This document shows positions 49,443-52,366 of a stretch of DNA of 64,000 nucleotides, in pieces. Where the stretch lies: sequence record MT446420.1. One strand, given 5' to 3'. The stretch is from Escherichia virus TH54. The position numbers were made by a program, and so were the translations under genes. The first letter of the stretch is position 1. Each line of letters begins with the position of its first letter. The notes below the pieces were generated by a model, which ran no database searches, was not told the DNA's origin, and saw only the letters and a program-made list of their open reading frames with translations.

Positions 49443-49607
49443 TTATTCCTCTGGGTTGTACACATGATTTTCCATCTGTACAACATATTCCTGATACATC
49501 TGTTCAACTGGTTCCTGAAACTTAAAATCTGCTCCAAGGAATTCACCAAAGCAATCATGCTCGCGTGCACGCTGACCAGTGATGGTGTTCTCTAAGTTAT
49601 GACTCAT
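49443..49607 (-). CDS. hypothetical small protein (54 aa)
   Basis: Hand-translated MSHNLENTITGQRAREHDCFGEFLGADFKFQEPVEQMYQEY...; GAGGAA SD; ATGA overlap with the upstream gene stop. Confidence 0.4.
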   Translation of the reverse strand: MSHNLENTITGQRAREHDCFGEFLGADFKFQEPVEQMYQEYVVQMENHVYNPEE

Positions 49608-49894
49608 AGTGATTCCTCGATGTAATCTTCTAAACCAAAATCATCAATTTCTTCTTGAATTTCTCTTAATACTTGTTCTTCATCTAGACCAGGACCAAAA
49701 ATCACTTTAGCGTAGCCGGGTCGTTCACTAGAGAATCGAATTGTATATTCCGGTTGAATATAGCCAAAGCTGCTATCCAAATCACAAAGAATTTCTGCAT
49801 AGATTTCGGCTGGAACTGAAGCACTGATTTTAAAAAGCTCATCAATAAGAATAACCAATTCAGTTGCTTGATATGTATGGAGTTTAGTAATCAT
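49604..49894 (-). CDS. arn: Arn-like anti-restriction protein (probable)
   Basis: 96 aa strongly acidic protein at the T4 arn position between asiA and motA; assignment by position, size and composition only. Confidence 0.45.
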   Translation of the reverse strand: MITKLHTYQATELVILIDELFKISASVPAEIYAEILCDLDSSFGYIQPEYTIRFSSERPGYAKVIFGPGLDEEQVLREIQEEIDDFGLEDYIEESL

Positions 49895-49983
49895 AGCCTT
49901 TACCCTTATGTTTCTGTTTGCGATTGGACTCTTTAAAATTTTTCTTCTTGTCCTTATGGACAGATGCCTTATTGAAATCGTGT

Positions 49984-50265
49984 TTAGCTACCAGATTGTT
50001 CATGCAATTTCCTTAATTGATATTCCAAAGAGCCAATAATTTCTTTATTAGTAGCAATATACATATCACGCAAGAATGGCTTTAGGCCTTCCATATTTCC
50101 ATGAATTGTCTTGGAACTAATATTCTTTATATATTCATGGTCTAATGCATCCCAGGCCGGTTGGTTGACATAAGTTCCCCAGTTGTCTTCCAGCATAACA
50201 TTCAGACGTTTAATATGGTTAATATGGGCTTCGATTGCATCAATCTGGAGTTGTTTAAGATTCAT
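49984..50265 (-). CDS. hypothetical protein
   Basis: 93 aa ORF in the arn-motA variable cluster. Confidence 0.5.
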   Translation of the reverse strand: MNLKQLQIDAIEAHINHIKRLNVMLEDNWGTYVNQPAWDALDHEYIKNISSKTIHGNMEGLKPFLRDMYIATNKEIIGSLEYQLRKLHEQSGS

Positions 50266-50753
50266 TAGTAAAGGTCCTCAGAGTAAAGTTCTTTTTCACT
50301 ACCACCACGTTCAATACGCACTTGATTTGCATAAGTCGCAATAATCATTGCTTCTTCACGGGTCCAGTAATTGCTGTATTGGTCAATGAATCCTTGATTA
50401 TCACCACAAACATGGTCTGATACAAGTTTATCACTTACCTGGTCAAGCACTTCTGCCATATCTTTTGAATAATGTCTGGCGCCAGGAATAACCAAAGTCC
50501 CGCCATCTTTTAATCTAAAGCGGTTGGCAGCGCATACAATTCGTCGCTGATATTTTTCATTGTTGTTCCAATGAGCAATCTGCCAACAGATTTCTGGGAC
50601 TTCTTCTAAAACATCTTCTTCTGTATATTCTGTATAGTCGCCGGATGCCTGTAATTTAGCTGCTAGACTTTCAGGTGTCTCACGAGAAAGAGCTTTATCC
50701 AATAAAGCCATACGGTCTTTAAAAGATAATTCTTTACCTTTTAATGGATTCAT
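50265..50753 (-). CDS. hypothetical protein
   Basis: 162 aa ORF; contains [22 protein letters not shown] segment; no confident family assignment. Confidence 0.55.
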
Positions 50754-51097
50754 TTGATAATCACCTTATAACCATTATATTTCACGAATTCATGAATTTT
50801 ATCACCAATACCAATCAACTCGCCTTTATCAGAAGAAGCCAATTTGATATCAACTGTTTGACATACACCAAATGAAGTTATGGATACTTTTTCTATAGTA
50901 ATAATCTCAAGAAAACGTGATAACTGCATACCAAACTCAAGAGGAATATTATCAATTTGGAGATGAAGGTTATAAATTACCTTAATACCATTCACCAGGG
51001 CACAACGTTCATCCCAAGCGTTACGTTGCTCTTCAATCAATTTAAGGGAATGGCCTTCGCCATCCCAATTTAGTTCCATAGGAATCATTTGAACCAA
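50750..51097 (-). CDS. hypothetical protein
   Basis: 115 aa ORF; 4-nt overlap with the downstream gene. Confidence 0.55.
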
Positions 51098-51417
51098 CCT
51101 TTAACACGTTGCCACAGACTTTTCTGTTGAGCTTTATTAACACCAATTGAGCGAATAACTGGTTGTGATTCCAGGTATTCTTTATAGTCAGCTTTATAGA
51201 CTTCATATGCTGCTGGAACAAAGGCGCCAATCGCTGCCATGAAGTTCTTGCGCGCGCCAAATGGAGCTACTGCATCGTCCTGGCGATGGATAAGATACTG
51301 ACCAGCTTTGACCTTGACAATAGTCCCAAGGTAAGCGCCATGATACCAAACATCCCAACCCTCTTGAGTAGGTTCTACGCAAGCACGCAATTCATTAACA
51401 ATATTCAGCTTATTCAT
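51085..51417 (-). CDS. hypothetical protein
   Basis: 110 aa ORF. Confidence 0.55.
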   Translation of the reverse strand: MNKLNIVNELRACVEPTQEGWDVWYHGAYLGTIVKVKAGQYLIHRQDDAVAPFGARKNFMAAIGAFVPAAYEVYKADYKEYLESQPVIRSIGVNKAQQKSLWQRVKGWFK

Positions 51418-51424
51418 AATTTCC

Positions 51425-52033
51425 TCACTTTAAGATGTTAATAACATGTTGAATGTTTTCAGTTGACATATGATTGTCAATGTAGGTATTCAATCCACCT
51501 ACTTTAACGCTAAATCCCACGTCTGTAAACTGTTTTACTATCTTTTGTTCAGTATTATACGCATGCACACGAATCTGACCATCACGACGTACATCAATCT
51601 GTTTTAATGTCTTGATACGCTTGAACTTCACAATCAGATTGCTACGGTCTTCTGAAATGCTCTTAAAGTCAATACCAATAGACAATAATTGCTCTTTGAT
51701 ATATTCTGCAGTCGCTTCCATTTCATCAGTCACACCGCGTTTTGTTCTTGTCTTCTTCACTTCCAGAAGGTCTGGATTATTTTCATTCGCCCACAGTTCT
51801 GCTGCATCCAGAATAAGGTCAACACCTTTTTCTGTAACCATCAAACCATCACCAGAAGCTTCAACATAGTTGTTATTCAACAATGTCTGCACGCTATCAA
51901 TTGACGTGTTCTGCTGGTCTAAAACAACCTCTGGACGCACGAAGTTGTTTTTGTATACAAACACCAGAGCATTGACATCAGTCTCATGTAGGGCGTTCTG
52001 GGAGCATTTAACGATATAATTTAACTTGTTCAC
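51425..52033 (-). CDS. motA: MotA middle-transcription activator
   Basis: 202 aa (T4 MotA 211 aa); GDGLMVTEKG and C-terminal TDVGFSVKVGGLNTYID blocks resemble T4 MotA. Confidence 0.8.
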   Translation of the reverse strand: MNKLNYIVKCSQNALHETDVNALVFVYKNNFVRPEVVLDQQNTSIDSVQTLLNNNYVEASGDGLMVTEKGVDLILDAAELWANENNPDLLEVKKTRTKRGVTDEMEATAEYIKEQLLSIGIDFKSISEDRSNLIVKFKRIKTLKQIDVRRDGQIRVHAYNTEQKIVKQFTDVGFSVKVGGLNTYIDNHMSTENIQHVINILK

Positions 52034-52035
52034 AA

Positions 52036-52263
52036 TTATCCCTTAATAGATTTCATATAATTTGACGCATATGATTGTACCACAGTACGTTTCATATGGG
52101 AAGTAGAAACAATCACATCAATCGCTTGTTTACGTTCTTCTTTAGAGTTTGCCAGTTTGAACATGTCAAAGTAATAATAACAAGCTTCTTTGTTAGATTT
52201 GAATTTGGCGTTGATGTATTCTTGACCTTCATTCTGTTGTGCAGTAAACATTTTATTCTCCAA
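52036..52263 (-). CDS. hypothetical protein (motA.1 position)
   Basis: 75 aa ORF preceded by conserved leader repeat and GGAGA SD. Confidence 0.55.
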   Translation of the reverse strand: MENKMFTAQQNEGQEYINAKFKSNKEACYYYFDMFKLANSKEERKQAIDVIVSTSHMKRTVVQSYASNYMKSIKG

Positions 52264-52282: not shown

Positions 52283-52306
52283 GTAACTCAGTATGGAATC
52301 ATTATG
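52283..52306 (-). repeat. conserved promoter-leader element, copy 3 of 4
   Basis: GTAACTCAGTATGGAATCATTAT, identical core to copies at 17811 and 56121. Confidence 0.6.
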
Positions 52307-52344
52307 CATCGGGTCAAGGGACTTGTACACTACTTTTTAAAATA

Positions 52345-52366
52345 AAAAAGGACCCCGAAGGGCCCT
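52345..52366 (-). terminator. imperfect hairpin terminator with U-run
   Basis: GGGCCC-TTCG-GGGTCC followed by TTTTTT on the minus strand. Confidence 0.5.

What the first reader, a model, noticed from the sequence alone, without database searches (positions are those of the whole stretch)
49884..51417. arn-motA island of four unassigned early genes
Between the arn-like gene and motA lie four tightly coupled ORFs (93, 162, 115 and 110 aa) with no confident family assignment from sequence inspection. The neighbourhood (asiA, arn, motA, alc, ndd, stp) is enriched for host-takeover and anti-restriction functions. A 39-codon lysine-rich ORF (49884-50003) also spans the short gap upstream of arn, overlapping both neighbours.
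Basis: inference. Interest (0 to 1): 0.5.

Follow-up and report, generated by a model that had tools for sequence, protein, structure and literature searches.

The report
T-even phage arn operon, variant form
The four "unassigned" genes are this phage's copy of the conserved arn.4-arn.3-arn.2 gene set of T4-like phages plus one lineage-specific insert, and Arn.3 begins with a two-helix segment that resembles the antitoxin of a bacterial anti-T4 defence, which gives a testable idea of its function.

Summary
The ORFs are real. With the neighbouring small ORFs they form a gap-free, translationally coupled chain on the minus strand, from motA to the asiA.1-like gene. One start needs correcting: the "115 aa" ORF starts at the ATG at 51088 and is 112 aa.

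"No family assignment" is only partly right:
- The 110, 162 and 93 aa proteins are orthologues of T4 Arn.4, Arn.3 (74% identity) and Arn.2. Arn.4 and Arn.2 each occur in about 1,000 phage records. Their function was still called unknown in a 2026 preprint.
- The 112 aa protein has no T4 counterpart and occurs in only 49 records (Dhakavirus and Gaprivervirus).
- The 39-codon ORF is Pfam DUF7230. It is the most widespread element (1,222 records) and is about 92% identical to an ORF not annotated in the T4 RefSeq record.

New lead: Arn.3 residues 9-35 match the N-terminal helices of CmdA, the antitoxin of the anti-T-even CmdTAC system (PADLOC E 1.7e-8; BLASTP E 9e-9). A conserved, enzyme-like core follows, and it has no relative among solved structures.

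I propose antitoxin mimicry, at about 0.3 probability. Published plaquing data fit only weakly: both CmdTAC-resistant phages carry the CmdA-like allele, but so do two sensitive ones.

The parts
51425..52033 (-). motA (202 aa, GTG start). It is the upstream neighbour and is probably co-transcribed with the island.
   Evidence: Pfam MotA_activ 4.7e-12 and MotCF 3.1e-9; phrog_1345 5.7e-72. 33% identity to T4 MotA. Only 7 nt separate its stop from the arn.4 start.
51085..51417 (-). arn.4 orthologue (110 aa; precomputed Pfam label PF26821).
   Evidence: The C-terminal 60 aa are 78% identical to T4 Arn.4 (E 2e-34). phrog_1594 2.6e-52. 1,002 phage records match, 996 of them over at least 80% of the length. 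54 protein clusters, all 107-114 aa except T4's 68 aa. Synonymous to non-synonymous changes against SP18 are 10:1. The AlphaFold model has low confidence (pLDDT 64).
50750..51088 (-). o112: lineage-restricted 112-aa gene inserted at the arn.4/arn.3 junction. The true start is the ATG at 51088, not the TTG at 51097.
   Evidence: phrog_14178 3.1e-68, aligned from residue 4 of the 115-aa version. No T4 counterpart. Only 6 clusters among 5.8 billion proteins. Found in 49 phage records; in the Gaprivervirus and Dhakavirus records whose annotation names the neighbours it lies between arn.4 and arn.3. Its first 20 aa ([20 protein letters not shown]) recur as the N-terminus of long Arn.3 forms P0021, P0030, P0037 and P0088. 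Synonymous to non-synonymous changes are 11:5.
50265..50753 (-). arn.3 orthologue (162 aa; precomputed Pfam label PF26092).
   Evidence: 74% identity to T4 Arn.3, E 1e-80. phrog_839 1.2e-72. 365 homologues found. AlphaFold model has mean pLDDT 88.5. Synonymous to non-synonymous changes are 34:3.
50649..50729 (-). Arn.3 residues 9-35: a two-helix module similar to the N-terminus of the CmdA antitoxin.
   Evidence: PADLOC PD-T4-9_B E 1.7e-8, profile positions 2-28 of 77. BLASTP against a genuine CmdA from an E. coli P2-like prophage gives 22/45 identities, E 9e-9. That CmdA matches PD-T4-9_B over its full length (128 bits). tblastn of CmdA against the whole window finds only this site (E 7.5e-7). 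The model places helices at residues 11-23 and 27-36.
50268..50591 (-). Arn.3 core domain (about residues 55-162), with the motifs [26 protein letters not shown] and a C-terminal SEDLY.
49984..50265 (-). arn.2 orthologue (93 aa).
   Evidence: 38% identity to T4 Arn.2 over the full length, E 4e-20. phrog_1844 1.7e-40. 942 phage records. No PDB relative by sequence.
49884..50003 (-). o39: a 39-aa lysine-rich protein of Pfam family DUF7230. It overlaps arn.2 by 20 nt and the arn-like gene by 11 nt.
   Evidence: Pfam DUF7230 5.9e-13, 49.2 bits against a cut-off of 27. phrog_1359 4.9e-23. 1,222 phage records, about 92% amino-acid identity in Tequatrovirus records including a T4 isolate (OL964735). 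The frame is intact with synonymous variation in all 14 genomes compared. It is not among the features annotated in T4 NC_000866.4 but is annotated in T2.
49604..49894 (-). arn-like gene (96 aa, strongly acidic). It is the downstream neighbour of the island.
   Evidence: phrog_8202 1.5e-39 and phrog_3151 (inhibitor of McrBC) 7e-6. 29% identity to T4 Arn, E 3e-6. Its only PDB sequence hit is T4 Arn 3WX4, E 0.038, over residues 13-93.
49443..49607 (-). asiA.1-like gene (54 aa), the last member of the coupled chain.
   Evidence: phrog_5245 3.5e-32. Its N-terminal 29 aa are 45% identical to T4 AsiA.1. It forms an ATGA overlap with the arn-like stop.
52036..52263 (-). o75: a small gene directly upstream of motA, probably the first gene of the transcription unit.
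   Evidence: phrog_17275 9.6e-53. A 2-nt gap separates it from motA. A terminator-like hairpin (52366-52349) and promoter-like sites (52329-52290) lie just upstream.

Best explanation
SHOWN. The island is this Gaprivervirus-type phage's version of the T-even 'arn operon'. The minus-strand order is o75-motA-arn.4-o112-arn.3-arn.2-o39(DUF7230)-arn-like-asiA.1-like. From motA onwards no gap exceeds 7 nt, and the protein-coding genes are under purifying selection. Compared with T4 and T2:
- it lacks arn.1 and the 70-nt spacer after arn.2;
- it keeps the unannotated 39-aa gene;
- it has a full-length arn.4;
- it carries an extra 112-aa gene at the arn.4/arn.3 junction.

INFERRED mechanism, which I commit to. 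The operon supplies small accessory host-takeover or counter-defence proteins soon after infection, and Arn.3 is its best-defined member. Arn.3 has two modules:
1. An N-terminal helical hairpin homologous to the toxin-facing N-terminus of CmdA, the antitoxin of the anti-T-even CmdTAC toxin-antitoxin-chaperone system.
2. A flexible linker leading to a compact, highly conserved, enzyme-like core.

Arn.3 lacks CmdA's chaperone-addiction tail and its LAA degron. I propose that the hairpin docks onto CmdT-family mRNA ADP-ribosyltransferase toxins, or a related toxin, after infection has destroyed the cell's own antitoxin. Arn.3 would then act as a protease-resistant antitoxin mimic. The core domain would either only stabilise it or act enzymatically on the toxin or its product.

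I estimate about 0.3 for this specific mechanism and about 0.5 for a counter-defence role of any kind. The roles of Arn.2, Arn.4, o112 and o39 remain unassigned. They most likely act as small binding proteins, which is inference only.
For: Identity and synteny with the T4 arn genes. Coupling. Purifying selection. Breadth of conservation.

T2 arn.4-arn.3-arn.2-arn.1-arn is a single transcript whose last gene inhibits McrBC, and the other functions are stated to be unknown (bioRxiv 10.64898/2026.06.19.733364).

CmdA link:
- PADLOC PD-T4-9_B E 1.7e-8.
- Pairwise BLASTP E 9e-9 against a genuine CmdA that ends in LAA and lies between an ART-like gene and a SecB homologue in a P2-like prophage.
- All ten long Arn.3 forms tested hit the same HMM over the same N-terminal 25-33 residues, at 16-46 bits.
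- CmdA is described as two N-terminal helices followed by a disordered tail (PMC11618068). The Arn.3 model has helices at 11-23 and 27-36, followed by a low-confidence linker.
- The hairpin is present in the E. coli T-even forms and several metagenomic ones, and absent from the Klebsiella, Citrobacter and Serratia forms and the about 90-aa stand-alone forms.
- CmdTAC specifically restricts T-even phages.
- Both CmdTAC-resistant BASEL phages (Bas35, Bas38) carry a CmdA-like allele. All nine phages with the T4-type allele, which has a proline in helix 1 and the weakest HMM score, are sensitive.

The core fold also occurs as a module in large polyvalent proteins of uncultured phages. From my own knowledge, not checked here, that protein class is rich in conflict domains.
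Against: Bas36 and Bas46 carry CmdA-like alleles yet are restricted about 100,000-fold by ECOR22 CmdTAC. The allele is therefore not sufficient, and the association is not significant (Fisher p = 0.077). It is also confounded by phylogeny.

In the published selection, T4 escaped CmdTAC only through alt.-3 mutations, not through arn.3 (PMC11618068).

The similarity covers only about 30-45 residues. DNA identity is 52% with third codon positions randomised, so the relationship is old and says nothing about present function.

The core domain is far more conserved than the hairpin and exists without it. The primary function of Arn.3 is therefore probably independent of CmdA mimicry.

No binding, structural or genetic test of Arn.3 against CmdT was possible here. 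The polyvalent-protein matches are weak (E 3e-3 to 5e-2, query TM about 0.32).
Confidence: 0.4

Rival explanations
1. Arn.3 is primarily an enzyme or ligand-binding protein of host takeover or nucleic-acid/nucleotide metabolism. The resemblance to CmdA reflects old shared ancestry of a generic two-helix adaptor: either the P2-prophage antitoxin borrowed a phage N-terminus, or the reverse. There is no antitoxin mimicry today.
For: The core domain carries invariant Arg-His, Gln-Gly-Phe-x-Asp, Arg, Gln and Ser-Glu positions and exists on its own as about 90-aa proteins in many phages and metagenomes. Two sensitive phages carry the CmdA-like allele. T4 escape mutants map to alt.-3. Third codon positions between cmdA and arn.3 are randomised.
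Against: No known enzyme fold or family matches the core, so there is no positive evidence for any particular activity. The hairpin is retained under selection in many T-even lineages and scores up to 45.6 bits against the CmdA model. This explanation leaves that retention unexplained.
Confidence: 0.35
2. The island encodes regulators of the phage's own gene-expression programme: small factors that bind RNA polymerase, sigma, the ribosome or RNA. On this reading it is an extension of the flanking asiA/motA transcription-takeover module rather than a counter-defence set.
For: The genes are flanked by and coupled to motA, and are followed by asiA.1-like and asiA. o39 is a 39-aa, very basic peptide (13 Lys/Arg of 39) conserved in 1,222 phage records, as expected for a nucleic-acid or ribosome binder. 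Arn.4 ends in a conserved basic amphipathic segment.
Against: No similarity to any known transcription or translation factor. The only characterised gene of the T2/T4 transcript, arn, is an anti-restriction protein. The Arn.3 hairpin points to a defence component.
Confidence: 0.2
3. Some of the ORFs, especially the 39-codon ORF and the 112-aa ORF, are not genes. They would be chance frames or by-products of conserved RNA or regulatory sequence.
For: o39 is very short, overlaps both neighbours and is missing from the T4 RefSeq annotation. o112 has only 6 homologue clusters.
Against: o39 passes the Pfam DUF7230 threshold. Its frame is intact in all 14 genomes compared, its codons vary synonymously (for example CTG/TTA/CTT/CTC at Leu4), and it has its own Shine-Dalgarno motif. 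o112 keeps its frame and length across 48 of 49 phage records down to 60% identity and shows 11 synonymous to 5 non-synonymous changes.
Confidence: 0.03

Closest known systems
The arn operon of phages T4 and T2 (arn.4-arn.3-arn.2-arn.1-arn, between motA and asiA.1/asiA)
   Same: Same position, strand and order. Arn.3 is 74% identical, the Arn.4 C-terminal half 78%, and Arn.2 38%. The 39-aa DUF7230 gene overlaps the start of arn in the same way. Functions other than Arn's are unknown in both.
   Different: - No arn.1 and no 70-nt arn.2/arn.1 spacer.
- The ArcZ pairing site CCAGGGAAAT of T2 reads TTAAGGAAAT here.
- An extra 112-aa gene lies between arn.4 and arn.3.
- arn.4 is full length (110 aa) whereas T4 and T2 have 68 aa.
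- The gap after motA is 7 nt instead of about 130 nt.
- The arn homologue is only 29% identical.
CmdA, the antitoxin of the CmdTAC (PD-T4-9) toxin-antitoxin-chaperone defence of E. coli
   Same: The N-terminal two-helix module: LSFxxRMALLxKALxxxxPESLxxKL, 22/45 identities, E 9e-9, with HMM positions 2-28 matched. Both belong to the conflict between E. coli and T-even phages.
   Different: - Arn.3 has no disordered chaperone-addiction tail and no LAA degron; it ends in an invariant SEDLY.
- It carries a 110-aa globular core instead.
- It is phage-encoded and not next to an ADP-ribosyltransferase or a SecB-like gene.
- No CmdT homologue occurs in the window.
T4 Dmd (phage antitoxin that neutralises the host toxins RnlA and LsoA). 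Comparison from my own knowledge, not tested here.
   Same: The proposed logic is the same. A T-even phage supplies a stable substitute for a labile host antitoxin that disappears after infection.
   Different: As far as I know Dmd shows no sequence similarity to the host antitoxins, whereas the Arn.3 hairpin is recognisably homologous to CmdA. Dmd is a small single-domain protein, whereas Arn.3 adds a conserved enzyme-like core. No activity of Arn.3 has been shown.
T4 Arn (anti-McrBC DNA mimic, PDB 3WX4)
   Same: The 96-aa neighbour (49604-49894) aligns with Arn over its whole length and is strongly acidic (about 21 Asp/Glu against 6 Lys/Arg, counted by eye). It also occupies Arn's position.
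   Different: Only 29% identity. PHROGs places it in a separate family of unknown function (phrog_8202). The close relatives SP18 and UPEC01 lack it entirely. Inhibition of McrBC is untested.

Membership tests
T4 Arn.3 family (phrog_839; precomputed Pfam label PF26092) | Full-length sequence homology to T4 Arn.3, including the conserved core motifs | tested here: met
   74% identity over 152 aa, E 1e-80. phrog_839 1.2e-72. All 16 invariant columns are present. PF26092 itself is not in the local Pfam copy, so the label rests on precomputed annotation of the homologues.
T4 Arn.3 family (phrog_839; precomputed Pfam label PF26092) | Position between arn.4 and arn.2 in the motA-asiA interval | tested here: met
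   The only difference is the inserted 112-aa gene upstream.
T4 Arn.2 family (phrog_1844) | Sequence homology to T4 Arn.2 and a position immediately downstream of arn.3 | tested here: met
   38% identity over 98 aa, E 4e-20. phrog_1844 1.7e-40. TAATG junction with arn.3.
T4 Arn.4 family (phrog_1594; precomputed Pfam label PF26821) | Sequence homology to Arn.4 and a position directly downstream of motA | tested here: met
   78% identity to T4 Arn.4 over its 60 C-terminal residues. 65-99% identity over the full length to about 50 clusters labelled PF26821. phrog_1594 2.6e-52.
Pfam DUF7230 (PF23876) | Score above Pfam's gathering threshold | tested here: met
   49.2 bits against a cut-off of 27, E 5.9e-13, profile positions 4-37 of 42.
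Arn, inhibitor of McrBC (phrog_3151; PDB 3WX4), for the 96-aa neighbour | Significant sequence similarity to T4 Arn | tested here: inconclusive
   BLASTP E 3e-6 in a 9-protein comparison. phrog_3151 7e-6, but the best PHROG is the separate phrog_8202. PDB phmmer E 0.038.
Arn, inhibitor of McrBC (phrog_3151; PDB 3WX4), for the 96-aa neighbour | DNA-mimic dimer that binds McrB and blocks restriction of hydroxymethylcytosine DNA | not testable with these tools
   Only the strongly acidic composition can be read from the sequence.
CmdA antitoxin of CmdTAC (PADLOC PD-T4-9_B) | N-terminal pair of alpha-helices (the toxin-facing module) | tested here: met
   HMM positions 2-28 matched at E 1.7e-8. 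BLASTP E 9e-9. Helices at 11-23 and 27-36 in the model.
CmdA antitoxin of CmdTAC (PADLOC PD-T4-9_B) | Long disordered C-terminal chaperone-addiction domain ending in a ClpXP degron (LAA) | tested here: not met
   HMM positions 29-77 are unmatched. A folded core with pLDDT 94-98 replaces them. The C-terminus is an invariant SEDLY.
CmdA antitoxin of CmdTAC (PADLOC PD-T4-9_B) | Encoded between a CmdT ADP-ribosyltransferase gene and a SecB-like CmdC gene | tested here: not met
   The neighbours are o112 and arn.2. tblastn of CmdT against the whole window finds nothing below E 6. The genuine locus is shown.
Phage-encoded antitoxin mimics (functional class, for example T4 Dmd) | Binds and neutralises a host toxin during infection | not testable with these tools
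   Indirect test only. The Arn.3 allele was compared with published efficiency of plating on cmdTAC for 13 T-even phages. Resistant phages: 2 of 2 carry the CmdA-like allele. Sensitive phages: 2 of 11 do. Fisher p = 0.077.

The most novel reading that the evidence does not exclude
Arn.3, a conserved T4 gene that has had no assigned function, is a chimeric counter-defence protein. Its hairpin, homologous to the CmdA antitoxin, targets the protein to CmdT-family mRNA ADP-ribosyltransferase toxins (or another toxin that uses this antitoxin module). The hairpin is fused to a structurally new, enzyme-like core domain that also circulates as a stand-alone phage protein and inside polyvalent proteins. 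Allelic variation in the hairpin (T4-type with a proline against CmdA-like) would then contribute to which T-even phages escape which CmdTAC variants.
Probability: 0.25. Interest if true: 0.75.

Novelty: new member of a known kind. Interest (0 to 1): 0.5.

Why it matters
The arn.1-arn.4 genes are among the model-phage T4 genes that still have no assigned function. A 2026 study of the T2 arn transcript could only say it is 'conceivable' that they act in counter-defence.

This work adds three things:
- Arn.3 starts with a module homologous to the antitoxin of CmdTAC, a defence that specifically restricts T-even phages. That turns a vague guess into a direct experiment: does Arn.3 or its hairpin bind and neutralise CmdT?
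- It explains a natural allele split among T-even phages.
- It flags a highly conserved core domain with no relative among solved structures, and a 39-aa gene conserved in more than 1,200 phage genomes but missing from the T4 reference annotation.

If the mimicry idea fails, the locus remains an ordinary variant of a known conserved operon.

Tried and rejected
- Pfam, NCBIfam and PDB sequence or profile searches for all island proteins gave nothing except DUF7230 for o39 and sub-threshold noise.
- The Arn.4 structure prediction was too uncertain (pLDDT 64) to justify a fold search.
- An exhaustive HMMER search with the Arn.3 N-terminal 50 aa against 1.8 billion representatives returned five hits: three Arn.3 fragments and two long proteins of over 1,100 aa (one repetitive, one with no matched stretch). 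The query is too short for that database size.
- tblastn of the hairpin against plasmids found no match.
- A CmdT-like toxin encoded by the phage itself was looked for in the window and not found.
- Recent horizontal transfer between cmdA and arn.3 is rejected: 52% nucleotide identity, with only 8 of 29 third positions identical.
- A simple 'CmdA-like allele means CmdTAC resistance' rule looked perfect after seven phages. It was then broken by Bas46 and Bas36.
- A MotA-box middle promoter directly upstream of arn.4 was looked for and not found. The only TGCTT nearby lies inside arn.4.
- A global RNA-duplex scan of ArcZ against the operon was uninformative, because long spurious duplexes dominated. 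Only the direct comparison of the published 10-nt site is used.
Full report
**What the window is.** The 3.2 kb around the finding matches T4-like phages of the genus Gaprivervirus: TH57 at 97.8%, SP18 at 94% and VR20 at 91% identity (taxonomy). The locus lies after gp37, a 183-aa gp38-like ORF and a holin on the plus strand. On the minus strand it runs between gp52/motA and asiA, as in T4.

**Observation.** All the ORFs described exist. The coupling is real. From motA (51425-52033) down to a 54-aa asiA.1-like gene (49443-49607) no gap exceeds 7 nt. Five of the seven junctions overlap by 1 to 20 nt, three of them as ATGA. Each start has a Shine-Dalgarno-like motif.

One coordinate needs correcting. 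The "115 aa" ORF begins at the ATG at 51088 (112 aa), in an ATGA overlap with the preceding stop. The PHROG profile alignment and the SP18 annotation agree on this.

The frames are under purifying selection. Synonymous to non-synonymous codon changes against SP18 are 10:1 for arn.4, 34:3 for arn.3 and 11:5 for the 112-aa gene.

**Identity of the four genes.** BLASTP against the T4 proteins of the same interval gives:
- 110 aa = Arn.4 (78% identity over T4's 60 C-terminal residues, E 2e-34)
- 162 aa = Arn.3 (74%, E 1e-80)
- 93 aa = Arn.2 (38%, E 4e-20)
- 112 aa = no T4 counterpart

Each has a strong PHROG of unknown function. The homologues of Arn.3 and Arn.4 carry the precomputed Pfam labels PF26092 and PF26821. 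These families are newer than the local Pfam copy, which explains the empty local Pfam scan.

Arn.4 and Arn.2 occur in 1,002 and 942 phage records. The 112-aa gene is narrow: six clusters among 5.8 billion proteins, and 49 phage records, almost all Gaprivervirus or Dhakavirus. Where the annotation names its neighbours, it sits between arn.4 and arn.3.

Its first 20 residues ([20 protein letters not shown]) reappear as the N-terminus of longer Arn.3 proteins in other phages, for example P0021, P0030, P0037 (Serratia X20) and P0088 (Pectobacterium PM2). This suggests that the gene body was inserted into the 5' end of an ancestral arn.3, which then re-initiated (inference). BASEL phage Bas35 carries an unrelated 51-aa gene at the same junction, so this is an insertion hot spot.

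**The 39-codon ORF.** It passes the Pfam DUF7230 threshold (49.2 bits against 27). It is the most widespread element of the locus: 1,222 phage records, including phages of Klebsiella, Proteus, Edwardsiella and Aeromonas. It is about 92% identical to the T4 version, while the flanking Arn and Arn.2 are only 29% and 38% identical.

In 14 genomes the frame is intact with synonymous codon variation. Where an arn gene follows (12 of the 14), its last codons overlap the arn start. It is absent from the T4 RefSeq feature table but annotated in T2. I could not assign a function. It is very basic: 13 Lys/Arg of 39 residues.

**What is known.** A full-text search for arn.1 to arn.4 found one relevant paper: a June 2026 preprint on T2 (10.64898/2026.06.19.733364). 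It reports the following:
- arn.4-arn.3-arn.2-arn.1-arn is one abundant middle transcript.
- The host sRNA ArcZ pairs with the 3' end of arn.2. This protects the transcript from RNase E cleavage in the 70-nt spacer before arn.1.
- The functions of arn.1 to arn.4 "remain unknown", although a counter-defence role is "conceivable".

In T2 the pairing site is CCAGGGAAAT, exactly complementary to ArcZ AUUUCCCUGG. In this window the corresponding sequence is TTAAGGAAAT, and both the spacer and arn.1 are absent. That regulatory device is therefore probably not conserved here.

**Arn.3 anatomy.** An alignment of 35 diverse homologues shows a core of about 110 aa with 16 invariant positions. They fall in the motifs [26 protein letters not shown] and a C-terminal SEDLY. 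That pattern is typical of an active site or a tight ligand site (inference).

AlphaFold2 gives a confident model, with mean pLDDT 88.5 and 94-98 across residues 51-140. It has two N-terminal helices (11-23 and 27-36), a low-confidence linker, and then an alpha/beta core.

**The CmdA lead.** Scanning PADLOC gave one hit. Arn.3 residues 9-35 match positions 2-28 of the 77-position PD-T4-9_B model (E 1.7e-8).

PD-T4-9 is CmdTAC, a toxin-antitoxin-chaperone system from a P2-like prophage. It restricts T-even phages through the mRNA ADP-ribosyltransferase CmdT (PMC9519451, PMC11618068). A published cloning primer let me locate a cmdTAC locus in E. coli N2250. Its middle gene encodes a 77-aa protein ending in LAA, and this protein matches PD-T4-9_B over its full length (128 bits). 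That protein is CmdA.

CmdA and the window's Arn.3 align as LSFEQRMALLNKALQQYNPESLYEKL against [26 protein letters not shown] (22/45 identities, E 9e-9). A six-frame search of the whole window with CmdA finds only this site.

All ten long Arn.3 forms tested hit the same model over the same region, at 16 to 46 bits. T4's allele scores lowest.

CmdA is described as two N-terminal helices followed by a disordered, chaperone-bound, ClpXP-degraded tail. Arn.3 keeps the helices and replaces the tail with its folded core. The hairpin is absent from the Klebsiella, Citrobacter and Serratia forms and from the stand-alone forms. Nucleotide identity across the shared segment is 52%, with third codon positions randomised, so the relationship is old. 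Neither CmdTAC paper mentions the arn genes.

**Testing the obvious hypothesis.** If the hairpin mimics the antitoxin, the Arn.3 allele might track sensitivity to CmdTAC. The Nature paper's source data give efficiency of plating for 12 BASEL T-even phages plus T2, T4 and T6. I retrieved arn.3 from 11 of those BASEL phages and from T4 and T2.

Two allele types exist:
- A T4 type, MNPFINRLKMLNVPL..., with a proline in helix 1.
- A CmdA-like type, MKTFKERLxLLDxAL....

| Allele | Phages | Outcome on cmdTAC |
|---|---|---|
| T4 type | T4, T2, Bas39-45 except Bas38 (nine phages) | all restricted 10^3- to 10^6-fold |
| CmdA-like | Bas35 (EOP 0.85), Bas38 (EOP 0.32) | resistant |
| CmdA-like | Bas36, Bas46 | restricted about 10^5-fold |

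. The association is not significant (Fisher p = 0.077) and is confounded by relatedness. At best the allele is necessary and not sufficient. T4 escape mutants in the published selection mapped to alt.-3, not arn.3. I therefore hold antitoxin mimicry at about 0.25-0.3.

**Neighbours.**
- The 96-aa "arn-like" gene is a diverged, strongly acidic Arn relative. It is 29% identical to T4 Arn, and T4 Arn (3WX4) is its only PDB hit. The close relatives SP18 and UPEC01 lack it.
- Upstream, a 75-aa gene (phrog_17275) abuts motA. It follows a terminator-like hairpin and promoter-like sites near 52300-52366, which is probably the start of the transcription unit (inference).

**Verdict.** This is a real, conserved, translationally coupled accessory operon. 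It is a variant member of the known T-even arn operon, not a set of orphan genes. Its functions remain unproven. The most useful outcome is a specific, testable hypothesis for Arn.3, together with an honest negative-leaning comparative test. Two annotation points also emerge: the conserved 39-aa gene, and the truncated arn.4 of T4 and T2.

Noticed in passing
window 49884-50003; T4 locus L003 between arn (2313-2591) and arn.1 (2675-2806): The 39-aa DUF7230 gene is not among the features annotated in the T4 RefSeq record NC_000866.4. In T4 it starts inside the 3' end of the annotated arn.1 in another frame. It is conserved in 1,222 phage records and is annotated in T2 (EcT2_00260).
   Followed up: partly
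T4 locus L003 3628-3834; T2 locus L015 2311-2517; window 51085-51417: T4 and T2 arn.4 are annotated at 68 aa and lack the N-terminal half. That half is the most conserved part of the family (MNKLxIxNELRxCxEPTQEGWDxWYHGAYLGTIVKVKAG). All other clusters are 107-114 aa. The roughly 130-nt 'gap' after motA in T4 and T2 may be a decayed 5' part of arn.4.
   Followed up: partly
window 49984-50025 (3' end of arn.2); T2 locus L015 about 1486-1570: The published ArcZ pairing site of T2 arn.2 (CCAGGGAAAT) reads TTAAGGAAAT here. The 70-nt spacer carrying the proposed RNase E site, and arn.1 itself, are absent. The ArcZ/RNase E control described for T2 is therefore probably not conserved in this phage.
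   Followed up: partly
window 50750-51088; Bas35 locus L006 4841-4996; UPEC01 locus L002 2530-2706: The gene junctions around arn.4 are insertion hot spots. This phage has the 112-aa gene between arn.4 and arn.3. Bas35 has an unrelated 51-aa gene at the same place. UPEC01 has an extra 58-aa gene between motA and arn.4. The first 20 aa of the 112-aa protein equal the N-terminus of long Arn.3 forms in other genera.
   Followed up: partly
SP18 locus L001 844-1117; UPEC01 locus L002 843-1116: The close relatives SP18 and UPEC01 lack the arn-like gene altogether. Their 39-aa ORF then overlaps the asiA.1-like start instead, and its C-terminal third changes (…TEMQSKRKQKHKGNHYES).
   Followed up: no
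window 52036-52263: A 75-aa gene (phrog_17275) sits directly upstream of motA with a 2-nt gap. T4 has a different gene near this position, the 49-aa hydrophobic motA.1. A terminator-like hairpin at 52366-52349 and promoter-like sites at 52329-52290 precede it.
   Followed up: no
Arn.3 core, window 50268-50591: Foldseek against predicted viral structures places the Arn.3 core fold inside several 'large polyvalent protein' entries of uncultured phages (767-1,354 aa) and in a 291-aa Erwinia phage PhiEaH1 protein. The scores for the polyvalent proteins are weak (E 3e-3 to 5e-2).
   Followed up: no
PMC11618068 source data; BASEL loci L006, L008, L019, L016: Among the T-even phages tested on cmdTAC, only Bas35 and Bas38 plate well. 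Both carry the CmdA-like Arn.3 allele, but so do the sensitive Bas36 and Bas46. Bas38 also plated poorly on the empty-vector control (2.8e6), so its EOP is less reliable.
   Followed up: yes
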